Positions 717 to 18,433 of a DNA stretch of 24,000 nt are shown here, piece after piece. The translations under genes and the position numbers were made by a program. The notes beneath the pieces were generated by a model that saw only the letters and a program-made list of their open reading frames with translations, made no database searches and had not been told where the DNA came from. Each line of letters begins with the position of its first letter. Position 1 is the first letter of the stretch. The stretch lies in the NCBI GenBank assembly GCA_000309945.1, contig CM001633.1:5049174-5073173 (forward strand), written 5' to 3'. The DNA is from Leptolyngbyaceae cyanobacterium JSC-12 (lineage in GTDB: Bacteria; Cyanobacteriota; Cyanobacteriia; Leptolyngbyales; Leptolyngbyaceae).

Positions 717-745
717 AGCGCTCTTCAAAATGGAGGGCGCTTTTT
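717..745 (+). terminator. Putative rho-independent terminator after psbA
   Basis: AGCGCTCTT (717-725) pairs with GAGGGCGCT (733-741): 9 bp including two G.U pairs, with a 7-nt loop. It is followed by a T run to 745. Confidence 0.45.
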
Positions 746-948
746 ACTAAAGGGTGGGTGTCGAAAGAGAATTTTAAGATTGCAGATTTTGGATTGCTGA
801 TCGACTGATTACCCCTCACCACCCTCAATCTTCACTCTCCACGTCCTTCCCCACTTTACTCATCCTCTGACTCCTGACTTCTGACTCCTCCCTATTTCTC
901 TTAACATTCAATTTCCCTTATGGATTGGTTAAGGAAACCCACCCATCA

Positions 949-971
949 TCTTTAGCAGTTCTTCATTTTTT
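949..971 (+). promoter_or_regulatory. Conserved 23-nt element TCTTTAGCAGTTCTTCATTTTTT, copy 1 (candidate psaA2-operon promoter/activator site)
   Basis: It is identical to 7441-7463. It contains TCTTTA and TCTTCA half-sites 11 nt apart. A -10-like TACTCT lies at 982-987, and a shared TCATC..CCTGAAT block follows at 989-1001. It sits 146 nt upstream of the psaA2 ATG. Confidence 0.5.
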
Positions 972-1094
972 CTAGTTATCCTACTCTGTCATCCCCTGAA
1001 TCTCTGATATCCCTTGCAGAGAACCAGTTAGGGGTTTCCTTCATACGTTTTTTCTGCCTTTCCTTGATTGTTTCACTTCATAAGGAGAGTCTAA

Positions 1095-3446
1095 ATGTCC
1101 ATCAGTCCTCCGGAACGAGGACAACGGGCAAGAGTTACGGTTGATCGCGATCCAGTCCCCACCTCATTTGAGCCGTGGGCAAAACCGGGTCATTTTGATC
1201 GCACCCTTGCACGCGGTCCTAAAACCACAACCTGGATTTGGAATCTGCATGCCAATGCTCATGATTTTGATTCCCACACCAGTGATTTAGAAGATGTTTC
1301 ACGAAAAATCTTTTCGGCTCACTTTGGGCACTTAGCGATTGTTTTTATCTGGCTTAGTGGCATGTACTTTCATGGTGCTAAGTTTTCTAATTTTGAAGCC
1401 TGGATGAGCAATCCAACCGACATCAGACCCAGTGCCCAGGTGGTTTGGCCGATTTTTGGTCAAGATATTCTAAATGCGGATGTGGGTGGCGGCTTTCACG
1501 GGATTCAAATCACATCTGGACTATTCCAAATGTGGCGTGCGGCTGGTTTTACAAACTCATTTCAACTGTATTGCACAGCAATCGGCGGGTTAGTGATGGC
1601 AGCCTTGATGCTGTTTGCAGGGTGGTTTCATTATCATAAGAGCGCACCCAAGCTGGAATGGTTCCGCAATTGGGAATCTATGATGAATCACCATCTGGCA
1701 GGTTTGCTGGGGTGTGGTGCACTGGGCTGGGCAGGTCACCAGATCCATGTTGCCCTACCCACTAATGAACTTCTGGATCGGGGTGTTGCACTCAAAGAGA
1801 TTCCCCTGCCGCATGAGTTCATTCTCAATAAACAGTTGATGGCAGATATTTATCCCAGTTTTGCCAAAGGGGTTGTCCCTTTCTTCACGCTCAACTGGGG
1901 AGCTTATAGCGATTTCCTGACTTTTAAGGGAGGGCTAAATCCGGTAACGGGTGGGCTTTGGTTAACGGATACAGCTCATCACCATGTGGCGATCGCAGTT
2001 CTGTTCATCATTGCAGGTCATTTTTATCGCACCAATTGGGGCATTGGGCACACGTTCAGAGAATTACTAGATGATGCTAGAACGCCAAAAATGTTCCCCT
2101 TATTTGGGTTTATTGGTCCAGTTGGGCACCAGGGGCTAGACAAAATCTTTGAAACCTCCTGGCATGCCAACCTGGCAATTCACCTGGTGCAATTTGGCAC
2201 TGCCAGTTTACTCGTGGCCCATCACATGTATGCCATGCCACCTTACCCCTATCTGGCAACAGACTATGCCACAGTCACTTCACTCTTCACCCATCATGTG
2301 TGGATTGCTGGCTTCTGTATTGTCGGTGGTGCAGCCCATGCCGCTATTTTCATGGTGCGGGATTACAATCCGGCAGATCATGTTAACAACGTGCTTGATC
2401 GCGTCTTGCGACACCGGGATGCCATTATTTCTCATCTTGCCTGGGTCTGCCAATTTTTGGGCTTCCACAGCTTTGCCATGTATTGCCACAACGATACAAT
2501 GCGAGCCTTTGGACGTCCCCAGGATATGTTCTCTGATACAGGCATTCAATTACAGCCTGTGTTTGCTCAGTGGATTCAGCACATTCATACAGCAGCCGTT
2601 GGTGCTGCCCAAACAGCCCAACCCTTAGGCAATGTGTTTGGGGGGCTGCGCAATATTGAACTCAGCGGTTTAGGTCAGACAGCTCCTCACATCATGGGTC
2701 CAGTGAGCCATGCCTGGGGAGGCGGCGTGGTTGCAGTCGCTGGTAAAGTTGCCATGATGCCCATCCCACTGGGTACTGCTGATTTCATGATTCACCACAT
2801 CCATGCCTTTACGATTCATGTCACCGTTTTAGTGCTGTTGAAAGGTGTCCTATTTGCCCGCAGTTCACGTCTCATCCCTGATAAAGCAAATCTGGGCTTC
2901 CGCTTCCCTTGCGACGGTCCTGGACGTGGAGGCACTTGTCAGGTCTCTGCCTGGGATCATGTCTTCCTCGGCTTGTTCTGGATGTACAACTCCCTGTCGA
3001 TGGTGATTTTCCACTTTTTCTGGAAGATGCAATCGGACGTATGGGGAACGGTTGCACCTGATGGGACGATCAACCACATCACAGGTGGAAACTTTGCTGT
3101 CTCTTCAATAACCAATAATGGTTGGCTACGAGACTTTCTGTGGGCGCAATCGACCCAGGTTATCACCTCCTACAATTCAGCATTGTCGGCATATGGTTTG
3201 CTATTCCTGGGTGGTCACTTTGTGTTTGGGTTTAGCCTGATGTTTTTGTTCAGTGGGCGGGGCTACTGGCAGGAATTGATTGAGTCGATTGTTTGGGCAC
3301 ATAACAAGCTGAGAATTACACCCACAATTCAACCGCGTGCCCTCAGTATCATTCATGGTCGGGCAGTGGGGGTAGCGCATTACTTACTGGGCGGCATTGT
3401 CACAACTTGGGCATTTTTCCTAGCTCGAACAGTAGCCCTGAGTTGA
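1095..3446 (+). CDS. psaA2: Photosystem I P700 apoprotein A1, far-red paralog (PsaA2)
   Basis: 783-aa ORF with an AAGGAG Shine-Dalgarno (SD) sequence upstream. It shows PsaA hallmarks ([23 protein letters not shown]) and the FX-binding loop [19 protein letters not shown]. It sits in the FaRLiP context next to chlF and apcE2. Confidence 0.95.
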
Positions 3447-3481
3447 CAGGCCCCATCGCAAAACTCAAACCGGTATGAATT

Positions 3482-5713
3482 ATGGCAACTAAATTTCCTA
3501 AATTTAGCCAAGATTTGGCAAGTGATCCGACGACACGGCGACTCTTTTATGCGATCGCCACAGCACACGATTTTGAAAGTCATGATGGCATGACGGAAGA
3601 GAATCTGTATCAACGGATTTTCGCCTCTCATTTTGGACATCTGGCAATTATTTTTCTGTGGGCATCTGGTGTTCTATTTCACGTAGCATGGCAGGGAAAC
3701 TTTGAGCAATGGATCAAAGATCCACTGACGGTCAGACCCATTGCCCATGCCATTTGGGATGCTCAGTTTGGTCCACCTGCGATCGAAGCATATACTCAAG
3801 CTGGTGCTCGTAACCCAGTCGATATCTGCTATTCCGGCGTATATCACTGGTGGTATACCATTGGGATGCGAACCACGAATGATTTGTTTGTGGGTTCCAT
3901 CTTTTTGATTTTCCTGGCATCACTGTTTTTATTTGCTGGGTGGCTCCATCTCCAACCCCGCTTCCGTCCCAATCTGGGTTGGTTCAAAAATGCAGAATCC
4001 CGCTTAAACCATCACCTGGCTGGATTGTTTGGGGTGAGTTCCCTCGCATGGACAGGACACCTGGTACATGTTGCCATTCCTGAATCACGGGGGCAGCATG
4101 TGGGTTGGGATAATTTTTTGTCTGTGCTACCCCATCCCCAAGGGTTAACACCCTTCTTTACGGGAAATTGGATGGCATATGCGGCTAATCCTGATACGCC
4201 CAATCATATTTTTGGCACTTCTCAGGGAGCAGGCACAGCTATCCTCACTTTCCTGGGTGGTTTCCATCCCCAAACAGAATCACTCTGGCTGACGGATATG
4301 GCGCATCACCATCTGGCGATCGCAGTCATTTTCATCATTGCTGGGCATATGTATCGCACCAACTGGGGCATTGGGCATAACATTAAAGAAATGCTAGAAG
4401 CCTTGCATGGACCAGGCTGGAAAGGCTTTTTCATCGCTCCCAGAACTGGACGTGGGCATCAGGGCATTTACGATACCTACAACAACTCATTGCACTTCCA
4501 ACTCGGTTGGCACCTGGCATGTTTAGGCGTGGTGACCTCACTCGTCGCACAGCATATGTATTCCATGCCACCCTATGCCTTCATCTCCAAAGATTTCACC
4601 ACAATGTCAGCGCTATATACTCACCATCAATACATTGCAGGATTTTTGATGGTTGGCGCATTCTCTCATGGTGCAATTTTCCTGGTGCGAGACTATGATC
4701 CTGAATTAAATCGGGATAATGTGCTGGCACGAATGCTAGATCATAAGGAAGCGCTGATTTCCCACTTGAGCTGGGCATCACTGTTCCTAGGTTTTCATAC
4801 CCTCGGTCTTTATGTCCACAATGATGTAGAAGTTGCTTTTGGTTCCGCAGATAAGCAAATTTTAATTGAGCCAGTTTTTGCTCAGTTTATTCAAGCCTCT
4901 CATGGTAAGTTGTTGTACGGGTTTAACACCTTGTTATCTAACCCAGATAGTGTGGCAACAACTGCCTGGCCCAACTATGGCAACGTCTGGCTGCCAGGCT
5001 GGTTAGATGCAGTTAACAATGGCACTAACTCGCTATTCTTGACGATTGGACCTGGCGACTTTTTAGTGCATCATGCGATCGCGCTAGGGTTGCATGTTAC
5101 CACCCTGATTCTGGTGAAAGGAGCCCTTGATGCCAGAGGTTCCAAGCTCATGCCCGATAAAAAAGACTTTGGGTATTCTTTCCCCTGTGATGGTCCTGGA
5201 CGAGGCGGCACCTGCGATATTTCTGCCTGGGATGCGTCTTACCTAGCAGTTTTCTGGATGCTGAATACTCTAGGTTGGATTACCTTCTACTGGCACTGGA
5301 AGCATTTAGCCATCTGGTCAGGCAATGTTGCCCAGTTCAATGAAGGCTCTACCTACCTGATGGGCTGGTTCCGAGACTACCTCTGGCTCTACTCTGGTCC
5401 CTTAGTCAATGGCTACAATCCCTTTGGTACTAGCAGTTTAGCTGTTTGGTCGTGGATGTTCTTGTTTGGTCACCTTGCCTGGGCAGTTAGCTTTATGTTC
5501 CTGATTACCTGGCGCGGCTACTGGCAAGAACTGATCGAAACCTTGCTCTGGGCACATGAGAACACCCCATTATCATTTGGCTACCCCAAAGATAAACCTG
5601 TTGCGTTGTCAATTGTGCAGGCTCGCCTGGTTGGGCTAACCCATTTTACGGTCGGGTATATCGCAACCTATGGTGCGTTTTTGATTGGCGCAACTGCTAG
5701 TAAGTTTGGGTAG
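3482..5713 (+). CDS. psaB2: Photosystem I P700 apoprotein A2, far-red paralog (PsaB2)
   Basis: 743-aa ORF starting 35 nt after psaA2: [20 protein letters not shown]..., [14 protein letters not shown], and FX loop [18 protein letters not shown]. Confidence 0.95.
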
Positions 5714-5772
5714 CGTTGCATCAAGTTTGGCTAGCGAATGCAGAGACTCTCCTCTCTCAGTAACTAGCTAAT

Positions 5773-5803
5773 AGTCCTGGTGCCATCACTGGGACTTTTC
5801 TTA
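5773..5803 (+). other. Weak stem-loop plus T-rich run between psaB2 and psaL2 (possible partial terminator)
   Basis: AGTCC..GTG / CAC..GGACT form an imperfect stem (5773-5796), followed by TTTTCTT. Confidence 0.25.
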
Positions 5804-5826
5804 TCTTCTATTGCAGGATATTGATT

Positions 5827-6342
5827 ATGAGCTATACCGATGATACTGATTGGGTGAAACCCTACAAAGGTGATCCGTTTTTAGGAAACTTATCAACTCC
5901 AGTCAACGACTCGCCCTTAGTCCGAGCCTTTATCAGAAACCTCCCTGCCTACCGTCCTGGCTTGACTCCATTCATGCGTGGGCTAGAAATCGGCATGGCG
6001 CATGGGTACTTCTTGATTGGACCTGAAATTGTGGTTGGCCCCTTGCGCGAAACAGCCCATGGAGCAAATTTAAGTGGTTTAATTACAGCCATTTATATTG
6101 CAGTGCTGGCATGTTTGGGAATTTCATTATTTGCTCTTACAACCTTTCAAGGAAATCCCAAAGGGGCATACAGTCGCTATTCTCAGGATGATCTAAGACC
6201 ATTGAGAACGAAGGAAGAATGGTTCCAGCTTAATGGTGGCGTTTTCTTAGGAGCAATGGGCGGAGCTATTTTTGCCTATCTCTTGTTAGAAAACTTTGGC
6301 GATCTGGATGCAATGTTACGTGGAGCCGTGAATATCAATTAG
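5827..6342 (+). CDS. psaL2: Photosystem I subunit XI, far-red paralog (PsaL2)
   Basis: PsaL-like sequence: VKPYKGDPFLGNLSTPVNDSPLVRAFIRNLPAYRPGLTPFMRGLEIGMAHGYFLIGP. The ATG at 5827 is preferred over the TTG at 5821 given in the ORF track. Confidence 0.85.
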   Translation: MSYTDDTDWVKPYKGDPFLGNLSTPVNDSPLVRAFIRNLPAYRPGLTPFMRGLEIGMAHGYFLIGPEIVVGPLRETAHGANLSGLITAIYIAVLACLGISLFALTTFQGNPKGAYSRYSQDDLRPLRTKEEWFQLNGGVFLGAMGGAIFAYLLLENFGDLDAMLRGAVNIN

Positions 6343-6358
6343 TCATTCCATACAATCA

Positions 6359-6392
6359 AGTTTGTTATAGAGATAGATAGCTATAGCAAACT
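6359..6392 (+). other. Intercistronic stem-loop between psaL2 and psaI2
   Basis: AGTTTGTTATAG (6359-6370) pairs with CTATAGCAAACT (6381-6392): 12 bp including one G.U, with a 10-nt loop AGATAGATAG. Confidence 0.45.
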
Positions 6393-6433
6393 CGATGTTT
6401 CACAATTCAGTCATACGAATTTGGAGATTGATT

Positions 6434-6589
6434 ATGGTAGATATGTCTCAGTTAACGGGTGCCTATTCAGCCTCATGGCTACCGTGGATTATGATTCCGC
6501 TAATTTTTTATATTTTGCCGTTTCCGGTAATTGCGATCGTGTTTCTCTGGATAGAAAAAGAAGCTAATGGAGAAGAAACTCAAACGTAA
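6434..6589 (+). CDS. psaI2: Photosystem I subunit VIII, far-red paralog (PsaI2)
   Basis: 51-aa product MVDMSQLTGAYSASWLPWIMIPLIFYILPFPVIAIVFLWIEKE... matches the PsaI single-helix pattern (SxLPxIxIP...). A GGAGA SD lies at 6423-6427. The upstream ATG at 6395 has no SD and adds non-PsaI residues. Confidence 0.75.
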   Translation: MVDMSQLTGAYSASWLPWIMIPLIFYILPFPVIAIVFLWIEKEANGEETQT

Positions 6590-6604
6590 GATTAGTCACA
6601 AGTG

Positions 6605-6653
6605 ATTAGTCATTGGTCATTGGTCATTAGTCATTAGTCATTGGTTATTGGTT
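6605..6653. repeat. STRR-type heptanucleotide tandem repeat (ATTRGTY x7)
   Basis: The copies are ATTAGTC, ATTGGTC, ATTGGTC, ATTAGTC, ATTAGTC, ATTGGTT, ATTGGTT. The unit contains TTGGTCA, the STRR2 unit described in heterocystous cyanobacteria. An extra degenerate copy lies at 6591-6597, and partially complementary sequence (AATGACCAGTGAC) lies at 6657-6685. Confidence 0.85.
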
Positions 6654-6730
6654 CAAAACCAAGTGACAATGACCAGTGACAAAGTAACAGCATGGATAAT
6701 TCACAATCTTGGACAGTGGAGAAGCTGAGT

Positions 6731-7240
6731 ATGCAAGATACATTAACGCGGGTGATTAATCGCTATGATGTGACCGATCGCTTTCTGGATAACGCTGCGA
6801 TCGCGACCCTTACTGAATTCTTAGAAACTGGCAGTCTGCGAGTTCAGGTGGTTGCTGTAATCAACGCTAATGCCGTTGAAATCGTTCGAGAATCCGCCAG
6901 ACAACTGTTTGAGGAACTGCCCTATTTAATTCAACCTGGTGGTAATGCTTATACCACCCGCCGCCATAGTATGTACTTGCGGGACATGGATTATTTCCTA
7001 CGCTACTCCTCCTACGCGCTGTTGACTGGGGATACTAGCATTCTAGATGAGCGCTTGTTGGCTGGATTAAAAGACACCTTTAACTCCCTTGGAATCCCAC
7101 TTGGGGTAACGGCTCGTAGCGTTCAACTGATGAAAGAGCGAACCCATCAAAAACTGATAGAAGCTCAATTAGGCAATCCTGCGTTTGTTGATGAGCCATT
7201 TGATTACATCATCCGAGCCTTAAGTGAACGTAACGTTTAG
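6731..7240 (+). CDS. Allophycocyanin beta-18 (ApcF)-like phycobiliprotein paralog with no cysteine
   Basis: The 169-aa product starts MQDTLTRVINRYDVTDRFLD. The stretch ...FEELPYLIQPGGNAYTTRRHSMYLRDMDYFLRYSSYAL...FVDEPFDYIIRALSERNV is ApcF-like in both motifs and length. The canonical bilin-attachment Cys (..RRYAACLRDMDY..) is Tyr here (codon TAC at 6974-6976), and the protein contains no Cys at all. A GGAGAAG SD precedes the ATG at 6731. Confidence 0.85.
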   Translation: MQDTLTRVINRYDVTDRFLDNAAIATLTEFLETGSLRVQVVAVINANAVEIVRESARQLFEELPYLIQPGGNAYTTRRHSMYLRDMDYFLRYSSYALLTGDTSILDERLLAGLKDTFNSLGIPLGVTARSVQLMKERTHQKLIEAQLGNPAFVDEPFDYIIRALSERNV

Positions 7241-7326: not shown

Positions 7327-7360
7327 AGGGGCGTTGCCAACTAACGTCCCTTTTTTATTT
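7327..7360 (+). terminator. Rho-independent terminator ending the psaA2...apcF-like operon
   Basis: AGGGGCGTT (7327-7335) pairs with AACGTCCCT (7343-7351): 9 bp including one G.U, with a 7-nt loop. It is followed by TTTTTTATTT. Confidence 0.7.
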
Positions 7361-7440
7361 GAATTCTTACGTTTATTCATCAAATTCAAGGATTTTTTCT
7401 ACCTGATTTTTACAAATCTAAAATTGGATATTGATACGAT

Positions 7441-7463
7441 TCTTTAGCAGTTCTTCATTTTTT
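7441..7463 (+). promoter_or_regulatory. Conserved 23-nt element TCTTTAGCAGTTCTTCATTTTTT, copy 2 (candidate chlF promoter/activator site)
   Basis: It is identical to 949-971. A -10-like TACAAT lies at 7475-7480, at the same offset as TACTCT in copy 1. The shared TCATC..CCTGAAT block lies at 7481-7494. It sits 111 nt upstream of the chlF ATG. Confidence 0.5.
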
Positions 7464-7551
7464 TGATTTACTCTTACAATTCATCAGCCTGAATGCTGAA
7501 ACTCCATATCCTGTATTAGTCAGGTGAATACTGTAAGGAGAATTGAATTGC

Positions 7552-8700
7552 ATGTCACAGTCCAGCAGTGAGATTGTGTCTGGTCGTGATTCCGCTCACC
7601 CGACAACAATTACAAGCCCTTTATCAAACCGAAAAACGCTCTCTCAGGTCTGGCAGCAGTTTTGCCAGTGGGTCACCAGTACCGATAATCGTCTTTATAT
7701 CGGGTGGTTTGGGGTGTTAATGATTCCAACCCTGGCAACTGCTGCTATTACATTTATTATCGCGTTTATTGCTGCGCCACCTGTTGACACAACTGGAACT
7801 GGTGCTCCGATCGCTGGTTCCTTATTAGATGGCAATAATCTAATGACGGCGGCGGTTGTTCCAACTTCTGCCGCGATCGGGCTACACTTTTACCCTATTT
7901 GGGCAGCTGCTTCAGTCGATGAGTGGTTATATAACGGTGGTCCCTACCAACTGATTGTGTTGCACTTTGTCATTGGCATTATCTGTTATCAAGACCGGGA
8001 ATGGGAGTTGAGCTATCGTTTGGGAATGCGTCCCTGGATTTCTCTTGCCTTCACAGCTCCTGTTGCAGCAGCATTATCGGTACTATTGATTTACCCGATT
8101 GGGCAGGGTGGTTTTTCGGCAGGAATGCCGTTAGGAATTTCTGGAACCTTCACATTCATGATGCAGTTTCAGGCAGACCATAACATTCTCATGAGTCCAC
8201 TTCACCAACTTGGAGTGGTGGGCGTTGTTGGAGGCGCTTTCTGTTGCGCAATGCATGGCTCATTAGTAACTTCAACGCTGGTTCGTAAAACGGGTGAAAA
8301 TGAATCGATTAATGCAGGGTATCGTTTTGGGCAAAAAGAAGCGACCTACCGCTTTGATGTTGCCCAAACCTACCAACATCGTACCTGGGGACGGTTTTTG
8401 ACATTTCCTAACTCGCGATCGCTCCACTTTATGTTAGCAGCGATTCCCGTAGCAGGTATCTGGTCAGCCGCTTTAGGAGTCGATATTTCTGGACTAAATT
8501 TTCACCGACTCAACCTGAGCCAACCTGATCTTTACAGCAATCGTCGAATTATACAAACCTGGGCAGATCGAGTCACTCAAATTAATGTAGGACTGCAATC
8601 TGTCAGTGAGTCGCGTTCTCAAGAGCTTTTACTGGAAAGCCAACGCCCTCTACCAATGGACTGGGTTGCCGGTGACTCAGTGCCAGTAACCTTTCGATAA
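7552..8700 (+). CDS. chlF: Chlorophyll f synthase (super-rogue D1 paralog, PsbA4/ChlF)
   Basis: It is D1-like over TM helices 1-5, but D170 is Ala ([10 protein letters not shown]), E189 is Asp (QADHN), and the whole [14 protein letters not shown]-terminal ligand region is replaced by unrelated sequence. The diagnostic QD motif is present ([19 protein letters not shown] versus D1 CYMGREWELS). Y161, H198, H215 and SRSLHF are retained. The ATG at 7552 follows an AAGGAG SD. Confidence 0.9.
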
Positions 8701-8705
8701 AAAAC

Positions 8706-8731
8706 GAGAACGTCAGCTTGCTGACATTCTC
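8706..8731 (+). other. Stem-loop immediately 3' of chlF (no U-tract)
   Basis: GAGAACGTCAGC (8706-8717) pairs with GCTGACATTCTC (8720-8731), near-perfect with one C/A mismatch. It starts 6 nt after the chlF stop codon. Confidence 0.45.
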
Positions 8732-8747
8732 ATGAGATGGGCAATTT

Positions 8748-8772
8748 TGCCCAAGTAGATTGCCAAGTAGAT
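8748..8772 (+). repeat. Tandem direct repeat TGCC(C)AAGTAGAT x2 upstream of apcD5
   Basis: TGCCCAAGTAGAT (8748-8760) is directly followed by TGCCAAGTAGAT (8761-8772). The pair lies 71-95 nt upstream of the ATG at 8843. Confidence 0.6.
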
Positions 8773-8842
8773 AGGGAAACTATCGGTTGTTCAATCCTTG
8801 TTTCTAGATTTGATCAATTCATCAATTTCAGGAGAAAAACGG

Positions 8843-9319
8843 ATGAGTATTGTGACTGAATTAATCCTCAATGCGGACAGTGAAGCTCGTTATCCTGCGC
8901 CAAAGGAACTGCGAATTTTCCAGGATTTTTTGAAAACGGGAGAGCAGCGCATTCGGATTGCAAGACTGCTGGCAGACAATGAGCAACGCATTGTGCAAAA
9001 CGGAAGTGCTAAATTCTGGGAACGAGTTCCTGTAACTCCCAGTAATAGTGGCAACCCCCGCAAAACTGCATCTTGCCAGCGAGATCAAGGATGGTACATT
9101 CGCTTAATTGCCTACTCGATTTTAGCAGGCAGCGAAAAACCCTTAGAAGAAATTGGCACAGTGGGCATTAAAGAGATGTATAACTCCCTCGAAATTCCCC
9201 TGCGGAATATTGTTGAATGTATGCGCTGTTTGAAAGAGGAAGCAGTGTCATTAATGAGTCCAGAAGATGCTGCAGAAGTTGCCCCTTACTTCGATCATAT
9301 TATTCGATCTCTGTCTTAA
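8843..9319 (+). CDS. apcD5: Far-red allophycocyanin alpha-type subunit (ApcD paralog; apcD5, formerly apcA2, by position)
   Basis: The 158-aa product MSIVTELILNADSEARYPAPKEL... has the FRL-type segment [26 protein letters not shown] in place of the canonical PGGNAYG..C(L)RD(Y/L). The attachment Cys is present. A CAGGAGAA SD lies upstream. The paralog number is inferred from the order alpha-apcB2-alpha-apcE2-alpha. Confidence 0.85.
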   Translation: MSIVTELILNADSEARYPAPKELRIFQDFLKTGEQRIRIARLLADNEQRIVQNGSAKFWERVPVTPSNSGNPRKTASCQRDQGWYIRLIAYSILAGSEKPLEEIGTVGIKEMYNSLEIPLRNIVECMRCLKEEAVSLMSPEDAAEVAPYFDHIIRSLS

Positions 9320-9469
9320 ATCGTTTGAGATTGATGAGTGATGAATAGTAGGTCTAAATCTGATAACTGAACTCTCTCACCTCAAATCTGCAATCCACAA
9401 TCTGTAGTTCCCAATCCAAAATCTTTAAGTTCTGTTTTGACTCAGTTTTTAATTGAAGGAAAACTACCC

Positions 9470-9955
9470 ATGCAAGATGCAATCACAACTCTGATCAACT
9501 CTTCTGACACTCAAGGAAAATATTTAGATGATGCTAGCTTAGAGAAGCTACAAAACTATTTTCGCAGTGGTGAACTACGAGCTAAAGCAGCAACAAGTAT
9601 CAGTGCAAATGCCAGTACGTTGGTAACGCAAGCTGTTGCGCGATCGCTTATGTATACCGACATCACTGCCCCTGGCGGAAATATGTACACCTGCCGCCGC
9701 TATGCTGCCTGCATCCGGGATTTGGATTACTTCTTGCGCTATGCTACCTACGCCATGTTAGCTGGTGACCCTTCCATTCTAGATGAGCGCGTGTTGAACG
9801 GACTGCGAGAAACTTACAACTCATTAGGTGTTCCAGTTGGTGCAACGATTCGCGCTGTGCAGGCAATGAAAGATGTGGTAACGGATTTGTTAGGAGCAGA
9901 AGCTGGTAAGGAAATGGGCGTTTACTTTGACTACATTGCCGCAGGCTTAAGCTAA
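9470..9955 (+). CDS. apcB2: Far-red allophycocyanin beta subunit (ApcB2)
   Basis: The 161-aa product [21 protein letters not shown]...[44 protein letters not shown]...[10 protein letters not shown] is collinear with ApcB. Cys81 is present, plus an additional Cys75. Confidence 0.9.
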
Positions 9956-9977
9956 CTCTTACCATAATCCATGTCTT

Positions 9978-10457
9978 ATGAGCATTATCACTCGAACGAT
10001 AGCCGTTGCCGATCTAGAAGCTCGATATCTTACTATCGCAGAGTTACAAACGATTCGTGACTTTTTTGAAGCTGGGCAGCAGCGGCTCCGAATTGCTAAC
10101 ATCCTGGCAGCAAACAGCCAAACAATCATCAACACAGGGACACAACGGTTTTGGGAGCGCTGTCCAGTGACTCCTAGTAACAGCGGCAATCCAACCTATC
10201 GAGCTTCGTGCATTCGTGATCAGGGTTGGTATATCCGTTTAGTAACCTACGCATTGGTTGAAGGCGATACCAAAATCATTGATACAGTTGGTATCAGAGG
10301 CGCAAAAGAAATGTACATCTCTCTAGGGATTCCTCTCGAAAACCTGGTGGAGTGTATGCGCTGTCTGAAAGAATCGGCTCTGGATTTGTTGTCGCTAGAT
10401 GATGCAATGGTTGTTGCCCCCTATTTTGATTACATCATTTGTGGGCTAACTCCCTAA
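9978..10457 (+). CDS. apcD2: Far-red allophycocyanin alpha-type subunit (ApcD paralog; apcD2 by position)
   Basis: The 159-aa product MSIITRTIAVADLEARYLTIAEL... carries [27 protein letters not shown]. It starts 22 nt after apcB2. Confidence 0.85.
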   Translation: MSIITRTIAVADLEARYLTIAELQTIRDFFEAGQQRLRIANILAANSQTIINTGTQRFWERCPVTPSNSGNPTYRASCIRDQGWYIRLVTYALVEGDTKIIDTVGIRGAKEMYISLGIPLENLVECMRCLKESALDLLSLDDAMVVAPYFDYIICGLTP

Positions 10458-10634
10458 GCATTAGTCAACCAATCTTTGCAGGCTGGGTGCAGCTTGGTGG
10501 AATTGAATAACTTCAGCACCTCCTAAAATTGCATCAGGTTTCATCCACCTGCAATATTTCAGATATTTTCCATTGAGATTTTTTCAGTGAAATTTCATCT
10601 ACAACAGTATTCCCAATGGGAGTGATCAAACTTC

Positions 10635-13010
10635 ATGAGCATTTTTATCAGCAGCGGCAGCCCGGTGGCTCATCCGCAACGATACCATACTCTACCGACG
10701 GTTACACTTTCGCAGGCAGAGCAACAAGACCGCTGGCTCAAACCAGGCGAATTGAGTCAATTACTAAGCTTTTTTCGTTCCGGCGCAAAGCGATTGGAGA
10801 TTGCTGAAATCTTGAGCCGCCATGCAGAGCAAATTGTTGCGGCAGCAGGAAATCGGATTTTTGTGTGGGGTTCTCCCATGATGTATTTAGATCCGATGCC
10901 TAATCGGGTGAATTTACCAGGATTTAATAGTTGGGCGTGGCAGCGATCGCGTAGCTCAACTTTCAGTGCAAACCTGCCGCAAAAGTTCAAATATACAGAA
11001 CCAGGAACCGGACTTGGAAATGTTGCCAAAAATAATTGGTTAGAAAGTCTACAGTTTGTGTTTGCTCAGGATCTCGATCCAGTCCCTGATAAGTTCCATC
11101 GCATTAACGTATTACGCTATGGCACTCGCAACATGAAAAAATCAATGCGAGACATTGCCTGGTTCTTGCGCTACGTTATTTATGCGATCGTGGCAGGTGA
11201 TTCTAGCATTCTGACTGTGAATGTCCGGGGTTTGCGGGGTGTCATTCCAGAAAACGTCACGGCTGCAACAGTCGTCGCAATGCAAACATTAAAATGGAAA
11301 AGTTTGAGCTACTTTAAACAAGATCGAGATGCTCAAGAGATTATTCGTCAGCATTTTGATGTACTCATTGCCGAATATCAAACAGAAAGTCCAACTGGAC
11401 ATTTGCGCCAGGGTACATCACTCGATCAACAAGGATTACAGTTGCCAGAAACTTATAAACTCACTAACCTCAGACCTAAATTTGTCATCAAGCCTGGAAT
11501 GGCAACAACAGAACTCCGGGAAGCGATTAGAGCTGCCTACCGTCAAGTATTTGAACGAGATTTAACCCGTGCTTATGGAGTCAGTTTAGGTGATCTGGAA
11601 TCCCAGGTAAAAAGTGGACAGCTATCTGCCAAAGAGTTTATCCGGCGTTTGGGGAAATCTCGCCTGTATCGCCAGGAATTTTATGAACCATTTACTATCA
11701 GTCGTGTCATTGAGTTGGCTGTGCGTCACTTTTTGGGACGAGGGTTGTACTCAATTGAAGAATTTCAAACTTACTTTGATGTCATAACTCAAGGGGGCTT
11801 GGCAGCATTAGTTGATAGATTGGTGGACTCTGAAGAATATAGTGACTACTTCGGGGAAGAAACCATTCCCTATCTGCGGGGATTGGGGCAGGAGGCGCAA
11901 GAATGTCGGAATTGGGGTGCTCAGTTTGAATTATTTAACTTTGGGGCTGCGGCACAAAAAATTCCCCAATTTATCACCCTTTTTGGTAGTTATCGGCAGC
12001 CGTTGCCAAATCAACATCCTTATGGAGCAAGTCATGACCCGCTGGAGATTCAGTTTGGTGCTGTTTTCCCCAAACCTGAACAAACATTAGCTGAACATCC
12101 TGGATATTTTAACGCGAATCATCATCGGATTTTGATTAGCTCTGGCATGAGTCACGGTGCACATAATGGCAATGGCACAAGTCATGACTTTGGTAGAGTG
12201 CCAGGATCGATCGCGTCTCGTCCGCTCAAATTTAGCGTAGCGCATAACAATGCGACTGGTAGTCCCAACCTGAATATTTATCCTCATTCTCCAGAAGCTG
12301 TCATTTTAGCAGCCTATCGTCAGGTGTTTGGAGGTGGTTTGTATGCAGGGCAACGACTTACAGCGGCAGAAGTTAAGTTGAAAAGTGGGGAGATTACGGT
12401 ACGAGAATTTATTCGGCAGTTGGGTAAGTCACGTCTGTTCCGTAGGCAAGCCTGGGAATCGCTTTACATTACTAAAGCAATTGAGTATATTCATCGTCGC
12501 TTGCTAGGACGACCTACTTATGGACGAGAAGAACTAAATCGCTATTATGATCTCTGTGCTCGTCAAGGGTTCTATGCCCTGATTGATGCCTTGATAGATA
12601 GCGCAGAATATAGTGACGTATTTGGCGAAGATACTGTGCCCTATGAACGCTATGTCACACCCAAAGGATTGGCAATGCGATCGCCCAATGGCACAGGCAA
12701 CTCCTGGAAAAACGGCTTTGCGGGGTCTACTCGGCGTCCAGCAGAATTGATTCCTTCAGCGGCTCCAGCACTCGAAGTATCGGAAGGGGGTAAAGCTTGG
12801 GCGTGGATGATGCAAGTCGCTGTTCAGCGATCGCATCTTACCAGCCAGCGATCACTGAACGGATCTCCACCATCTCAGCTTCCACCACCTGCCACCGCAG
12901 TCATCAACGAATTGATGAGTCAAACTTCTGAACCTGCTGTTTCTCCTGATCAACCGAATCAACCGATATCTTCGGCTGAAGAAGGGGAACCCATTGCCAC
13001 ACCATCTTGA
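10635..13010 (+). CDS. apcE2: Far-red phycobilisome core-membrane linker (ApcE2), two REP domains, Cys-less phycobiliprotein domain
   Basis: The N-terminus MSIFISSGSPVAHPQRYHTLPTVTLSQAEQQDRWL is ApcE-like. The PB domain has a loop insertion. It has ..RGLRGVIPENVTAATVV.. where canonical ApcE has ..ENACSGEAT.., so no Cys at the bilin site (V208 at 11256-11258) and none in aa 1-250. There are two linker-REP domains (AYRQVFERD...EEYSDYFGEETIPY and AYRQVFGGG...AEYSDVFGEDTVPY). Confidence 0.9.
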   Translation: MSIFISSGSPVAHPQRYHTLPTVTLSQAEQQDRWLKPGELSQLLSFFRSGAKRLEIAEILSRHAEQIVAAAGNRIFVWGSPMMYLDPMPNRVNLPGFNSWAWQRSRSSTFSANLPQKFKYTEPGTGLGNVAKNNWLESLQFVFAQDLDPVPDKFHRINVLRYGTRNMKKSMRDIAWFLRYVIYAIVAGDSSILTVNVRGLRGVIPENVTAATVVAMQTLKWKSLSYFKQDRDAQEIIRQHFDVLIAEYQTESPTGHLRQGTSLDQQGLQLPETYKLTNLRPKFVIKPGMATTELREAIRAAYRQVFERDLTRAYGVSLGDLESQVKSGQLSAKEFIRRLGKSRLYRQEFYEPFTISRVIELAVRHFLGRGLYSIEEFQTYFDVITQGGLAALVDRLVDSEEYSDYFGEETIPYLRGLGQEAQECRNWGAQFELFNFGAAAQKIPQFITLFGSYRQPLPNQHPYGASHDPLEIQFGAVFPKPEQTLAEHPGYFNANHHRILISSGMSHGAHNGNGTSHDFGRVPGSIASRPLKFSVAHNNATGSPNLNIYPHSPEAVILAAYRQVFGGGLYAGQRLTAAEVKLKSGEITVREFIRQLGKSRLFRRQAWESLYITKAIEYIHRRLLGRPTYGREELNRYYDLCARQGFYALIDALIDSAEYSDVFGEDTVPYERYVTPKGLAMRSPNGTGNSWKNGFAGSTRRPAELIPSAAPALEVSEGGKAWAWMMQVAVQRSHLTSQRSLNGSPPSQLPPPATAVINELMSQTSEPAVSPDQPNQPISSAEEGEPIATPS

Positions 13011-13036
13011 CTATCAGCGCCTGGGAGAATTCCTAT

Positions 13037-13282
13037 ATGACATTCCTTGAGCACCTGTCTATTGCCCTGAACCCCCCTGATCACTTACAGGCTGAAATGG
13101 TGTCCTTACTACATGCTCAAAGGTGTAGGTTGAGTGATTTAGGCTCTGCCATGCGAAAGTGGCTGGGGCAACTGATCGCTTCCGCTAAACGCCCTCGTCG
13201 CGATCGCCGCAACATTGGACGGCTGTACTTCGGTTGGTTTGGCGGCGTGCAGTTTTTTTACAGTCAGGAGAGTAAGCCATGA
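13037..13282 (+). CDS. Hypothetical small basic protein (81 aa) filling the apcE2-apcD3 gap
   Basis: The ORF MTFLEHLSIALNPPDHLQAEMVSLLHAQRCRLSDLGS...RPRRDRRNIGRLYFGWFGG... is open across the whole 268-nt gap. Its TGA overlaps the apcD3 ATG (ATGA at 13279-13282). No homolog was recognised and no clear SD is present, so it could be a chance ORF. Confidence 0.3.
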   Translation: MTFLEHLSIALNPPDHLQAEMVSLLHAQRCRLSDLGSAMRKWLGQLIASAKRPRRDRRNIGRLYFGWFGGVQFFYSQESKP

Positions 13283-13764
13283 GCCTAGTTAAAGAAGTGA
13301 TTGAAACTGCTGATAGCGAAGTGCGCTACCCAACGGCAGGGGAAATTTGGATGATTCAAAATTTCTGCAAATCGGGAGAACAGCGGATTCAAATTGCCAA
13401 CAAATTGGCCTGTAACGAACGCTATCTGGTAGAGCGAGGTAGCCAAAAGTTTTGGCGGCGCTGCCCAGTCACTCCCAGCAACAGTGGCAACTTACGCAAA
13501 ACCAATTCCTGCCAGCGTGACCAAGGGTGGTATATTCGGCTGGTTGCCTATTGTGTTTTGGCAGGTAGCCAAAAACCCCTCGAAGAGATTGGCACCATTG
13601 GCATGAAGGAAATGTATCGCTCGCTAAATATCCCTATTGCTAACTGGGCAGAGGCGATGCGATGCATTAAAGAAGAGGTGATTTTGCTTTTAGGCGAAGC
13701 GGATGCTGCCACGGTGACGCCTTACTTTGATCACATTATTGATACCTTTTCTCAGGGGATTTAA
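13279..13764 (+). CDS. apcD3: Far-red allophycocyanin alpha-type subunit (ApcD paralog; apcD3 by position)
   Basis: The 161-aa product [23 protein letters not shown]... carries [38 protein letters not shown] lies upstream, and psbD3 follows directly. Confidence 0.85.
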
Positions 13765-13766
13765 CT

Positions 13767-14825
13767 ATGACTATTGCACTGCAACGCCCCGGTGAATGGG
13801 GTGATATTTTGTTTAGGATTGATGATTGGCTGAAGCGCGATCGCTTCGTCTTCATTGGCTGGTCAGGATTATTGTTGTTTCCCTGTGCCTATTTAGCGCT
13901 AGGCGGATGGTTTACTGGCACAACATTTGTTAGTTCCTGGTATACACACGGATTAGCAACCTCTTACTTAGAAGGTTGCAATTTCCTCACCGCCGCAGTT
14001 TCTACACCTGCAAATAGTCTGGGACATTCACTTTTGTTGTTGTGGGGACCGGAAGCACAGGGCGATTTCACCCGCTGGTGCCAGCTTGGTGGGCTATGGA
14101 CTTTTGTGGCGCTGCATGGAGCGTTAGGGTTGATTGGTTTTTGTTTACGTCAAATTGAAATTGCCCGATTAGTTGGTGTTCGTCCATACAACGCGATCGC
14201 GTTCTCTGCCCCCATCGCCGTTTTTGTCTCTGTCTTTTTAATCTATCCACTCGGACAATCTGGTTGGTTTTTTGCACCCAGTTTTGGAGTCGCGGCTATC
14301 TTCCGGTTCCTGCTATTTTTCCAGGGTTTTCATAACTACACGCTCAATCCATTTCACATGATGGGTGTGGCAGGTGTATTGGGTGGAGCACTCCTCTGCG
14401 CAATTCATGGTGCCACTGTAGAAAACACCCTATTCGAGGAAACACGCGGCTTTAATACGTTTCGTGGTTTTACAACCACTCAAGCCGAAGAAACCTACTC
14501 CATGGTGACGGCAAATCGCTTCTGGTCACAGATTTTCGGCGTAGCATTTTCGAACAAACGTTGGCTTCACTTCTTCATGTTATTTGTTCCAGTGACAGGC
14601 TTATGGATGAGTGCAATTGGGATGATTGGCACCGCCTTTAACCTGCGGGCGTATGACTTTGTATCTCAAGAAATCCGAGCCGCCGAAGATCCTGAATTTG
14701 AAACCTTTTACACCAAAAATATCCTGCTGAATGAAGGGCTACGTGCCTGGATGGCACCTGCTGATCAGCCCCATGAACATTTTGTATTCCCAGAGGAGGT
14801 TTTGCCCCGTGGAAACGCCCTTTAG
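13767..14825 (+). CDS. psbD3: Photosystem II D2 protein, far-red paralog (PsbD3)
   Basis: 352 aa: [48 protein letters not shown]...[12 protein letters not shown]. The D2 length and termini are canonical. It starts 2 nt after apcD3. Confidence 0.95.
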
Positions 14826-16221: not shown

Positions 16222-16247
16222 TGCGCACTTATTCTGTACATCTGCAA

Positions 16248-16296
16248 ATTTTAGATTTTAGATTTTGGATTGAATCTAAAATCTAAAATCTAAAAT
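16248..16296 (+). other. Long AT-rich hairpin built from TCTAAAA/TTTTAGA heptamer repeats, 3' of psbC2
   Basis: ATTTTAGATTTTAGATTTTGGATT (16248-16271) pairs with AATCTAAAATCTAAAATCTAAAAT (16273-16296), about 22 bp with one G.U. A T6 run at 16316-16321 follows 20 nt later. Confidence 0.6.
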
Positions 16297-16345
16297 CCAC
16301 AATCTAAATCTGCTGATTTTTTCACGCTTCAGCCCTTTTCGCCCT

Positions 16346-16720
16346 ATGTTTCACTCCTTCTATCTCCTCACGTTTTACCCACTGCAGACTTATTTAACAC
16401 CAATTTGTTTTTTTACTGCATGGATTGTTTTTCTAATGCTCTTTGCTAATCTTTGGGCATTGAGCCAGGATACAGTCACCTATGCTAGCCGAATGTACCA
16501 AATTCCCTGTTCTAATTGTCGTTTTTTCACTGAGAACTATCAACTTAAATGCACAATCCATCCAATTGAAGCATTAACAGAAGCAGCTATTGATTGTCCA
16601 GATTATCAATCAAATGATTACTCCTTTAGCCTTGATCCAAACCCGATGTGCTCAACTTCCAATATGGAAAAAGCAATTACAGAAAATTCCAGAGCGGAAC
16701 CCATGAGCACTAAAGTCTAA
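16346..16720 (+). CDS. Hypothetical membrane-anchored Cys-rich protein (124 aa)
   Basis: An N-terminal hydrophobic helix (ICFFTAWIVFLMLFANLWAL) is followed by IPCSNCRFFTENYQLKCTIHPIEALTEAAIDCPDY (CxxC...C...C). It is on the same strand as, and nested between, psbC2 and psbB2. No strong SD is present. Confidence 0.55.
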   Translation: MFHSFYLLTFYPLQTYLTPICFFTAWIVFLMLFANLWALSQDTVTYASRMYQIPCSNCRFFTENYQLKCTIHPIEALTEAAIDCPDYQSNDYSFSLDPNPMCSTSNMEKAITENSRAEPMSTKV

Positions 16721-16751
16721 ATCAGCTTAGATGTAACGAAACCCAACGCAC

Positions 16752-16781
16752 ACTCAACCAATCAAAACTCAACCAATTAAA
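16752..16781 (+). repeat. Tandem 15-mer x2 directly upstream of the psbB2 ribosome-binding site
   Basis: ACTCAACCAATCAAA (16752-16766) is followed by ACTCAACCAATTAAA (16767-16781), with one mismatch. An AAAGGAG SD follows at 16783-16789. Confidence 0.6.
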
Positions 16782-16799
16782 ACAAAGGAGCATCACTCA

Positions 16800-18416: not shown

Positions 18417-18433
18417 CTTCTGTGTATAGGGAC

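What the first reader, a model, noticed from the sequence alone, without database searches (positions are those of the whole stretch)
949..1015. 23-nt identical element plus extended similarity upstream of psaA2 and chlF: a candidate far-red-responsive promoter module
TCTTTAGCAGTTCTTCATTTTTT occurs identically at 949-971 and 7441-7463, each in an intergenic region upstream of a FaRLiP transcription unit. An exact 23-mer match by chance in 24 kb is negligible. Similarity continues downstream: -10-like hexamers at the same offset (TACTCT 982-987 and TACAAT 7475-7480), TCATC at +40 in both, CCTGAAT at +46/+47, and ATATCC further on. The element contains two half-sites, TCTTTA and TCTTCA, spaced 11 nt apart (one helical turn), and it overlaps the expected -35 position. 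That is the geometry expected for a winged-helix (OmpR/PhoB-type) class II activator, and the FaRLiP master regulator RfpB has a winged-helix domain. I am not aware of a defined RfpB operator.
Basis: partly seen in the sequence, partly recalled or inferred. Interest (0 to 1): 0.7.

Follow-up and report, generated by a model that had tools for sequence, protein, structure and literature searches.

The report
Far-red promoter box, already described
The repeated 23-base sequence is real and is the core of a promoter element that sits in front of the far-red-light photosynthesis operons of every cyanobacterial lineage I sampled, but a 2024 preprint already catalogued this motif class (listing the strain whose ChlF is identical to this window's), and its presumed binding protein, RfpB, is still untested.

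Summary
The exact 23-mer at 949-971 and 7441-7463 is confirmed (0/100 shuffles). The window is a FaRLiP cluster whose ChlF is 100% identical to that of Leptolyngbyaceae cyanobacterium JSC-12.

Across 27 FaRLiP loci from several orders, a 34-nt box recurs 42 times. It is always on the coding strand, upstream of chlF, psaA2, psbA3 or an rfpD-like gene. It was not found at that strength in 1.14 Mb of control cyanobacterial DNA.

The consensus is TCTTCATnRGT-TCTTCAKnTTT (two 11-nt direct repeats), then 10 nt, then a -10 element TAnnCT. No -35 consensus is present. This is the geometry of an E. coli Pho box, and RfpB carries an OmpR/PhoB-type Trans_reg_C domain.

Its -10 hexamers are 5-6 nt off: the conserved ones are TATCCT 977-982 and TACTCT 7469-7474. 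"TCATC" at +40 is the likely transcription start.

Antonaru et al. (bioRxiv 2024) already described this motif class, proposed RfpB binding, and list JSC-12. No experiment defining an RfpB operator was found. Verdict: real, functional-looking, already known. RfpB binding is inferred, not shown.

A weak fourth copy at 23326-23359 precedes a ComFB-like/CrtI-family gene pair.

The parts
949..982 (+). FaRLiP box upstream of psaA2 (34 nt: two 11-nt direct repeats, T-tract, -10)
   Evidence: PWM score 40.0 bits. It includes the exact 23-mer at 949-971. Orthologous boxes lie upstream of psaA2 in L082, L084, L005 and L006.
949..955 (+). half-site 1 (TCTTTAG; cross-species consensus TCTTCAT)
   Evidence: Frequency matrix of 39 unique sites: C2 35/39, T3 39/39, T4 38/39, A6 39/39.
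960..966 (+). half-site 2 (TCTTCAT), 11 nt after half-site 1
   Evidence: T12 39/39, T14 39/39, C16 35/39, A17 39/39.
977..982 (+). conserved -10 element TATCCT (TAnnCT), 10 nt after half-site 2
Evidence: T29 38/39, A30 38/39, T34 38/39 at a fixed offset.
989..993 (+). TCATC: predicted transcription start region (inferred, 7-9 nt after the -10)
   Evidence: Same offset (+40) in both window copies. A related YATCA element follows chlF boxes in other lineages (flanks). No start-site data are available.
7441..7474 (+). FaRLiP box upstream of chlF
   Evidence: PWM score 40.9 bits. It includes the exact 23-mer at 7441-7463. Boxes lie upstream of chlF in 21 site instances across the 27 FaRLiP loci.
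7441..7447 (+). half-site 1 (TCTTTAG)
7452..7458 (+). half-site 2 (TCTTCAT)
7469..7474 (+). conserved -10 element TACTCT
Evidence: Offset +28, as in all lineages.
7481..7485 (+). TCATC: predicted transcription start region (inferred)
717..751 (+). terminator-like hairpin plus T-tail after psbA3, about 200 nt before the psaA2 box
   Evidence: 11 pairs, 6 GC. Terminator-like sites are not enriched in the window as a whole, so this is only consistent with a transcription-unit boundary.
7327..7361 (+). terminator-like hairpin plus T-tail after the apcB-like gene, about 80 nt before the chlF box
   Evidence: 10 pairs, 5 GC, tail TTTTTTATTT
1095..7240 (+). presumed transcription unit 1: psaA2-psaB2-psaL2-psaI2-apcB-like
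   Evidence: Family assignments. No further box lies inside it.
7552..19624 (+). presumed transcription unit 2: chlF, apc genes, apcE2, psbD3, psbC2, psbB2, psbH2, psaF2, psaJ2 (extent inferred)
   Evidence: Family assignments. No other box above 12 bits lies between 7475 and 23325.
23326..23359 (+). weak candidate fourth box (TCCTCATAAGTTCCTTAAAATGTTTTGTTAATCT), 56 nt before a ComFB-like ORF
   Evidence: 25.8 bits against a control maximum of 19.2 in 1.14 Mb. A homologue of the ORF sits inside the FaRLiP cluster of L082/L083.

Best explanation
The two copies are the core ('3-prime region') of the conserved FaRLiP promoter box. This is an activator-dependent sigma-70-type promoter that marks the start of far-red-induced operons.

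Each box has two 11-nt tandem direct repeats (TCTTCATnRGT / TCTTCAKnTTT; in this genome the first heptamer is TCTTTAG). These sit where a -35 element would be and end 10 nt upstream of a conserved -10 (TAnnCT). Transcription probably starts at the conserved TCATC, about 7-9 nt further on.

The most likely mechanism has three steps. In far-red light the phytochrome kinase RfpA phosphorylates RfpB, via RfpC. A head-to-tail pair of RfpB winged-helix domains then binds the two repeats. Like PhoB at a Pho box, the bound pair recruits RNA polymerase to a promoter that has no -35.

On this contig there are three strong boxes: psbA3 (521 nt before the window starts), psaA2 and chlF.

Shown here: the sequence conservation, fixed geometry, strand and position, the enrichment over 1.14 Mb of control cyanobacterial DNA, and the RfpB domain type. 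Inferred: RfpB as the binder, activation, and the start site.
For: - Exact 23-mer twice in the window.
- A PWM finds 42 sites of at least 27 bits in 27 FaRLiP loci (438 kb). All are on the strand of, and 35-470 nt upstream of, chlF (21), psaA2 (6), psbA3 (9) or rfpD-like genes (6). The maximum in 65 control loci around ordinary psbA (1.14 Mb) is 19.2 bits.
- The frequency matrix shows two 11-nt repeats, invariant T3, A6, T11, T12, T14, A17 and T21, a -10 TAnnCT at a fixed offset, and no -35 consensus.
- psaA2 carries its own box only where it is not directly downstream of chlF: the window clade and Nostoc. L007 and L089-L091 have chlF-psaA2 adjacent and a single box.
- No box lies upstream of rfpA, rfpB or rfpC in the loci covered.
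- RfpB is REC-Trans_reg_C(PF00486)-(Hpt)-REC.
- Literature: RfpB is a winged-helix activator required for expression of all FaRLiP cluster genes (PMC4658448). PhoB binds tandem 8-bp repeats with 3-bp linkers located 10 bp upstream of a TAN3T -10 (PMC1906773).
- In reporter tests only the chlF upstream region of Leptolyngbya JSC-1 was far-red inducible, about 30-fold; the regions upstream of psaL2, apcE2, psbB2 and rfpB were not (PMC10127269). This matches the box distribution in the similarly arranged locus L090.
- The same motif class and RfpB hypothesis are in Antonaru et al. 2024.
Against: - No binding, footprint or start-site data exist for any FaRLiP box in the literature I could search.
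- The PWM was trained on the FaRLiP sites it then scores, so only the control comparison is independent.
- A degenerate form of the pattern is not unique at metagenome scale. Most of 120 hits were chance matches in low-GC or gut contigs, although the five best PWM scores were all in FaRLiP context.
- chlF, psbA3 and apcD5 upstream regions from Synechococcus 7335 were not induced in Chlorogloeopsis. The box may therefore be insufficient, or recognition may be lineage-specific.
- The window itself does not contain rfpB.
Confidence: 0.7

Rival explanations
1. The box is a far-red-operon promoter element, but it is bound by a regulator other than RfpB. Candidates are another OmpR-family protein (RpaB, or the RppA-like regulator encoded at 19679-20380 next to the cluster) or a factor downstream of RfpB. 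In that case RfpB would act indirectly.
For: An OmpR-type regulator (NCBIfam RppA, 303.8 bits) flanks the cluster. No direct RfpB-DNA data exist. Zhao et al. allow direct or indirect regulation for some outputs.
Against: No RppA-like short regulator gene was detected next to the cluster in the other FaRLiP loci, whereas the box is found in every lineage sampled. The RpaB HLR1 pattern is absent at both sites. RfpB is the only DNA-binding component of the Rfp system, and rfp genes co-occur with the box in the loci long enough to show them.
Confidence: 0.15
2. The 23-nt identity mainly reflects recent duplication or gene conversion of one promoter within this genome. Only the -10 and T-tract would be functional, as an ordinary promoter, and the repeats would have no specific regulatory role.
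For: Similarity extends about 45 nt beyond the 23-mer, which suggests common descent of the two copies. The variable positions 7 and 9 co-vary between the chlF and psaA2 copies in three genomes: GCAG/GCAG, GCGG/GCGG and TCAG/TCAG. Antonaru et al. infer that psa motifs arose by duplication of the chlF motif.
Against: Duplication explains the origin, not the maintenance. The heptamers are near-invariant across orders whose ChlF proteins are only 60-70% identical, while flanking intergenic DNA is unconserved. The psbA3 copy shares the box but not the flanks. A missing -35 argues against an activator-independent promoter.
Confidence: 0.08
3. The element acts as RNA (a 5'-UTR or small-RNA motif), or it is a dispersed repeat or mobile element rather than a DNA-level protein-binding site.
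For: It is repeated within one genome, and conserved sequence continues into the presumed 5'-UTR.
Against: There is no Rfam match at either site. The box lies upstream of the conserved -10, so it is probably not transcribed. Only three strong copies and one weak copy were found on the about 32 kb of this contig that I scanned; all are oriented towards a gene, and none lies in the 1.14 Mb of control DNA. The T-rich direct repeats have no hairpin potential.
Confidence: 0.03

Closest known systems
FaRLiP intergenic motif ('chlF', 'long' and 'short' motifs) of Antonaru et al., bioRxiv 10.1101/2024.05.15.594131
   Same: It is T-rich and conserved, lies within 440 bp upstream of chlF, psa, psbA3, apc and rfpD, and is absent before rfpABC. 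It has a 3' region of about 33 bp and is proposed to bind RfpB. The psa copies are inferred to be duplicates of the chlF motif. JSC-12, whose ChlF is identical to the window's, is listed with a '(short)' chlF motif. My 34-nt box matches the 33-bp 3' region in size and position. The GTAAC...TGAAG box I see at -26 in other lineages matches their 5' region.
   Different: Nothing essential differs. The preprint text I could read does not describe the two 11-nt direct repeats, the fixed 10-nt distance to a -10 element or the Pho-box analogy. Its logos are figures that I could not read, so a base-by-base comparison was not possible.
E. coli Pho box / PhoB-activated promoters (OmpR/PhoB family)
   Same: Both have tandem direct repeats with 11-bp periodicity (a 7-8 bp core plus a 3-4 bp linker), located 10 bp upstream of a TAnnnT -10 and replacing the -35. 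In both cases the regulator has a Trans_reg_C winged helix.
   Different: The repeat sequence differs (TCTTCAT here). RfpB has an extra C-terminal receiver domain and often an Hpt domain. Binding and a sigma-region-4 contact are untested.
RcaE/RcaF/RcaC with the L-box, and CcaS/CcaR with the G-box (chromatic acclimation types 3 and 2)
   Same: Each is a light-colour-sensing kinase that signals (through a single-domain CheY protein in Rca) to an OmpR-class regulator, which binds a repeat motif in promoters of alternative light-harvesting genes. RcaC shares the REC-wHTH-HPt-REC layout of RfpB; that layout for RcaC is from my own knowledge. The pathway parallels are in PMC5737509.
   Different: The photoreceptor type differs (knotless phytochrome versus cyanobacteriochrome), as do the motif sequence and the target genes. 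For the L-box and G-box, binding has been demonstrated; for the FaRLiP box it has not.
RpaB / HLR1 element of photosystem and hli promoters
   Same: It is an OmpR-family direct-repeat element in cyanobacterial photosynthesis promoters.
   Different: The HLR1 pattern (KTTACAWW-N2-KTTACAWW) does not occur at or near either site, even allowing 3 mismatches.

Membership tests
FaRLiP intergenic motif (Antonaru et al. 2024) | Conserved T-rich sequence within about 440 bp upstream of operon-leading FaRLiP genes (chlF, psa, psbA3, apc, rfpD) | tested here: met
   42 sites lie 35-470 nt upstream of chlF, psaA2, psbA3 or rfpD-like genes on the coding strand. The window sites end 112 and 77 nt before psaA2 and chlF.
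FaRLiP intergenic motif (Antonaru et al. 2024) | 3' conserved region of about 33 bp | tested here: met
   A 34-nt block of high information content, positions 1-34.
FaRLiP intergenic motif (Antonaru et al. 2024) | 5' conserved region about 12 bp upstream (present in 'chlF' and 'long' types, absent in 'short') | tested here: not met
   GTA-N8-T[AGT]A sits at -26 in 11 of 38 unique sites, but not in the window's psaA2, chlF or psbA3 copies. This agrees with the paper listing JSC-12 chlF as '(short)'. The window copies are therefore the short form.
FaRLiP intergenic motif (Antonaru et al. 2024) | Absent upstream of rfpA/B/C; specific to FaRLiP genomes | tested here: met
   No box precedes rfpB, rfpA or rfpC in the loci covered. 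The control maximum is 19.2 bits in 1.14 Mb. Caveat: degenerate pattern matches occur by chance in very large metagenome collections.
FaRLiP intergenic motif (Antonaru et al. 2024) | Base-by-base agreement with the published logo | not testable with these tools
   The logos are in figures, and the supplementary tables held as text lack the sequences.
OmpR/PhoB-type activator site (Pho-box-like promoter) | Two or more tandem direct repeats with about 11-bp periodicity | tested here: met
   Positions 1-7 and 12-18 both read TCTTCAT/K.
OmpR/PhoB-type activator site (Pho-box-like promoter) | Repeats replace the -35 and lie about 10 bp upstream of a TAnnnT -10 | tested here: met
   Exactly 10 nt (positions 19-28) separate heptamer 2 from TAnnCT, with only one site showing a 1-nt shift. 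Positions 6-11 carry no TTGACA-like consensus. That this hexamer is the -10 is inferred from conservation, not from a mapped start site.
OmpR/PhoB-type activator site (Pho-box-like promoter) | The cognate regulator has a Trans_reg_C winged-helix domain | tested here: met
   RfpB homologues in L088, L090 and L091 are Response_reg - Trans_reg_C - (Hpt) - Response_reg. The rfpB of the window's own genome was not retrieved.
OmpR/PhoB-type activator site (Pho-box-like promoter) | Demonstrated binding of the regulator and regulator-dependent transcription from the site | not testable with these tools
   This needs EMSA or footprinting and reporter or start-site mapping. None was found in the literature.
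RpaB HLR1 element | KTTACAWW-N2-KTTACAWW direct repeat | tested here: not met
   Only two matches with up to 3 mismatches in the window, both elsewhere (19750, 23283), and fewer than chance expectation.

The most novel reading that the evidence does not exclude
The FaRLiP box is a true Pho-box-type operator for RfpB, and the RfpB regulon reaches beyond the canonical cluster.

The weak box at 23326-23359 would place a ComFB-like protein, and the overlapping CrtI-family flavoprotein that starts at 23773, under far-red control. A homologue of the ComFB-like protein is embedded in the FaRLiP operon of a related genome.

This would link far-red sensing to a small signalling protein and to an uncharacterised pigment-type oxidoreductase. 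In addition, the lineage-wide switch of half-site 1 from TCTTCAT to TCTTTAG in all three strong boxes of this genome would reflect co-evolution with its RfpB.
Probability: 0.15. Interest if true: 0.55.

Novelty: already known. Interest (0 to 1): 0.3.

Why it matters
FaRLiP is of interest for extending photosynthesis into the far-red and as a source of tightly light-switched promoters. The DNA target of its master regulator RfpB is still experimentally undefined; Liu et al. 2023 state that such studies are 'underway'.

The box gives a concrete, testable operator: two heptamers, 11-nt phasing, and 10 nt to the -10. It also explains why only some intergenic regions of the cluster behave as far-red-inducible promoters.

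For this window specifically, the finding adds no new kind of element. It re-identifies, from raw sequence, a motif already catalogued in a 2024 preprint that lists the strain with an identical ChlF.

Tried and rejected
Only about 15 were FaRLiP loci; the rest were reused as negative controls.
Chance matches in low-GC or gut contigs dominated, many of them antisense to coding sequence. Only about a dozen hits were in FaRLiP context, so it supports specificity only for the highest PWM scores.
3. The motif sequences and logos of Antonaru et al. could not be read because they are figures, and Table S11 lost its colour coding. The promoter sequences of Liu et al. are not held.
4. An unanchored local alignment of the regions downstream of the 23-mer is not significant (298/2000). 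Only the position-anchored comparison is.
5. Terminator-like sites are not enriched window-wide (20 against 19.9 expected). The two hairpins before the boxes are therefore weak evidence.
6. The simple sigma-70 consensus scan finds no +-strand promoter at either site. This is expected for a promoter without a -35.
7. RpaB/HLR1 was rejected, as were an Rfam RNA family and a dispersed repeat or mobile element (copy number and orientation).
8. The direct-repeat pattern alone, with 2 mismatches allowed, is not specific (4 hits against 2.6 expected).
9. Concerted evolution between the paralogous boxes rests on only two co-varying positions in three genomes, and the psbA3 copy does not follow them. 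I left it as an observation.

Full report
**Observation.** The 23-mer TCTTTAGCAGTTCTTCATTTTTT occurs exactly twice in the window, at 949-971 and 7441-7463 on the + strand. No further copy exists with up to three mismatches, and none appeared in 100 dinucleotide-preserving shuffles. The repeat finder extends the pair to 30 nt at 90% identity. Anchored at the repeat, the 45 nt that follow share 26 identities, a value reached in 0 of 2000 shuffles. The 60 nt upstream show no excess similarity. The exception is the two '-10-like hexamers', which lie at +33 and +34 rather than at one offset.

**Context.** The window is a far-red light photoacclimation (FaRLiP) cluster. It holds:
- the 3' part of psbA3 (to 633);
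- psaA2 (1095-3446), psaB2, psaL2, psaI2 and an apcB-like gene (to 7240);
- chlF (ATG at 7552, with the diagnostic YQDRE motif);
- four allophycocyanin genes, apcE2, psbD3, psbC2, psbB2, psbH2, psaF2 and psaJ2;
- on the minus strand, an RppA-like OmpR regulator and an OprB porin.

The window is identical over 18.7 kb and 6.6 kb to two stretches of the JGI metagenome contig Ga0137716_10000168. Its ChlF is 100% identical to EKQ66838.1 of Leptolyngbyaceae cyanobacterium JSC-12. On that contig rfpA and rfpC precede psbA3. Terminator-like hairpins with T-tails follow psbA3 (717-751) and the apcB-like gene (7327-7361), shortly before each copy of the repeat. Such sites are not enriched window-wide, so they are only consistent with transcription-unit boundaries.

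**Comparative evidence.** I collected 27 FaRLiP loci (438 kb). They include close relatives with the same gene order (ChlF 81-99% identical) and Nostocales, Chroococcidiopsis, Pleurocapsales/Chroococcales, Coleofasciculaceae, Leptothermofonsia, Phormidesmis and other Leptolyngbya-like lineages. I also collected 65 loci around ordinary psbA genes (1.14 Mb) as controls.

A 34-nt weight matrix seeded on the window copies converged on 42 sites of at least 27 bits in the FaRLiP loci. The best control score was 19.2 bits. Every one of the 42 sites is on the coding strand, 35-470 nt upstream of a FaRLiP gene: chlF (21), psaA2 (6), psbA3 (9) or an rfpD-like CheY gene (6). No site precedes rfpA, rfpB or rfpC.

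psaA2 has its own box only where it is not immediately downstream of chlF, that is in the window clade and in Nostoc. In L007 and L089-L091, chlF and psaA2 are adjacent and share one box. The box therefore marks operon starts. The matrix was trained on these sites, so only the contrast with the control loci is independent evidence.

**Anatomy.** In 39 unique sites the consensus is T1-C-T-T-C-A-T7-n-R-G-T11, then T12-C-T-T-C-A-K18-n-T-T-T, then a T-rich stretch to position 25, then T29-A30-n-n-C33-T34. T3, A6, T11, T12, T14, A17 and T21 are invariant. T29, A30 and T34 are each present in 38 of 39 sites.

This amounts to two 11-nt tandem direct repeats with heptamer core TCTTCAT, followed after exactly 10 nt by a -10 element of the form TAnnCT. 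There is no -35-like consensus, and only one site has a 1-nt spacing change. In the window the first heptamer is the variant TCTTTAG. The same variant occurs in the third strong box of this contig, upstream of psbA3, 521 nt before the window begins (42.5 bits).

With these, the conserved TCATC at +40 (989-993, 7481-7485) falls 7-9 nt after the -10. It is the most likely start region, but this is inferred because no start-site data were available. Many lineages carry an additional box (GTAAC..TTT..TGAAG) at a fixed -26, and it contains an inverted copy of the heptamer core. It is absent from the window's copies.

**Mechanism.** RfpB homologues in the fetched loci have the architecture receiver, Trans_reg_C (PF00486), optional Hpt, receiver. 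Zhao et al. showed genetically that RfpB is an activator required for expression of the cluster, and described its winged-helix domain (PMC4658448). PhoB, the family archetype, binds tandem 8-bp repeats with 3-bp linkers placed 10 bp upstream of a TAN3T -10 (PMC1906773). The FaRLiP box has the same geometry.

The best-supported model is that phosphorylated RfpB binds the two heptamers head-to-tail and recruits RNA polymerase to a promoter that lacks a -35. Indirect experimental support comes from Liu et al. 2023. Of five Leptolyngbya JSC-1 intergenic regions tested, only the one upstream of chlF was far-red inducible (PMC10127269). In the similarly arranged locus L090, only the chlF upstream region carries a box. 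Binding itself is not shown anywhere I could search.

**Rivals.**
- A different regulator. The RppA-like neighbour was not detected beside the other clusters, and the RpaB HLR1 pattern is absent. This is possible but less likely.
- Pure duplication or gene conversion. This explains the origin of the psaA2 copy and the extended similarity. It does not explain near-invariance of the heptamers across orders whose ChlF proteins are only 60-70% identical.
- An RNA element or a mobile repeat. This is contradicted by the position upstream of the -10, the copy number, the orientation and the lack of an Rfam match.

**Comparison with what is known.** Antonaru et al. [quoted passage not shown] Their motif has a 33-bp 3' region and a 5' region about 12 bp upstream. 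It is absent before rfpABC, and they proposed that it binds RfpB. They infer that psa and psbA3 copies arose by duplication of the chlF motif. Their Table S11 lists 'Oscillatoriales cyanobacterium JSC-12' with a '(short)' chlF motif. This matches my finding that the 5' box is missing here.

The finding is therefore a rediscovery of a catalogued element. What my analysis adds is the decomposition into two 11-nt direct repeats at a fixed 10 nt from a -10, the Pho-box analogy, the corrected -10 and the probable start. The preprint text I could read does not state these, and I could not read its figures.

**Limits.** The rfpB gene of this genome was not retrieved. No transcript data were available.

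**Verdict.** Novelty: already known. Interest 0.3. The element is biologically important and makes the RfpB operator question directly testable, but it has already been put forward in the literature.

Noticed in passing
window 23326-23359 (+), ORF 23416-23772, next ORF from 23773: A weak FaRLiP-box-like site (25.8 bits; control maximum 19.2) lies 56 nt upstream of a 118-aa ComFB-like ORF (PF10719, E=8.8e-5, below the Pfam cut-off). On the same contig that ORF is followed, with overlapping stop and start codons, by a 526-aa CrtI-family flavoprotein and then a Usp protein. The site has three 11-nt tandem units (CCCTCACAAGT, TCCTCATAAGT, TCCTTAAAATG). It is a possible extra-cluster member of the far-red regulon.
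   Followed up: partly
L082:12862-13227 and L083:6598-6963: A 43%-identical homologue of the window's ComFB-like ORF sits inside the FaRLiP cluster of a related metagenomic genome (ChlF 86% identical), between an apcD gene and apcE2. The family may therefore be an accessory FaRLiP gene in this clade.
   Followed up: partly
L213:1928-1961 (same contig, 521 nt before window position 1): A third strong box (TCTTTAGAGGTTCTTCAGAATTTTTGCCTATTCT, 42.5 bits) starts only 10 nt after the rfpC stop codon and ends 35 nt before the psbA3 ATG. All three strong boxes of this genome share the TCTTTAG variant of half-site 1.
   Followed up: yes
FaRLiP loci, -26 to -10 relative to the box (e.g. L007:9459-9475, L089, L090, L026, L030, L006 psaA2): The 5' box GTAAC(T/C)TTTnnT(G/A)AA(G/A) sits at a fixed distance in 11 of 38 unique sites. 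It reads as GTA-N8-T[AGT]A and ends in TGAAGA, the inverted complement of the TCTTCA half-site. L091 has a third direct TCTTCA unit between it and the box. It could be an additional RfpB site or a site for a second factor. It is absent from the window copies.
   Followed up: partly
window 1002-1021: A small hairpin in the presumed psaA2 5'-UTR, CTCTG (1002-1006) / CAGAG (1017-1021) with a 10-nt loop containing ATATCC. It is conserved with its flanks in L082 and L084, but with no compensatory changes, so a structural role is unproven.
   Followed up: no
window 15250-15436 (-): An Rfam IsrR match (138.6 bits) lies antisense inside psbC2. It most likely reflects isiA/psbC sequence homology rather than a genuine IsrR gene.
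   Followed up: no
window 19679-20380 (-): An RppA-like OmpR-family response regulator (NCBIfam NF041734, 303.8 bits) lies immediately downstream of the FaRLiP cluster, followed by an SLH/OprB porin (20846-22645). No such regulator was detected beside the other FaRLiP clusters examined.
   Followed up: partly
window 6591-6646 and 16248-16309: There are short tandem or palindromic repeats in intergenic spacers. ATTAGTCA/ATTGGTCA 14-nt units lie between psaI2 and the apcB-like gene. Palindromic TCTAAAAT repeats (24-nt arms, 96% complementary) lie between psbC2 and the 124-aa ORF.
   Followed up: no
window 8704-8733: A strong 13-bp palindromic hairpin lies just after the chlF stop codon. The scan called it terminator-like on the minus strand. 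It could attenuate read-through from chlF into the apc genes.
   Followed up: no
L183 (metagenome contig, 4968 nt), box about 3705-3738 on the minus strand: A high-scoring box-like site (39.8 bits; CCTTCATAAGTTCTTCAAGTTTGTTTCCTAATCT) lies upstream of an ORF that, from its N-terminal sequence alone, resembles a hydrogenase maturation protease (not checked against any family library). The contig has a cyanobacteria-like GC content (0.49) and no FaRLiP gene. It may be chance or an extra-cluster target.
   Followed up: no
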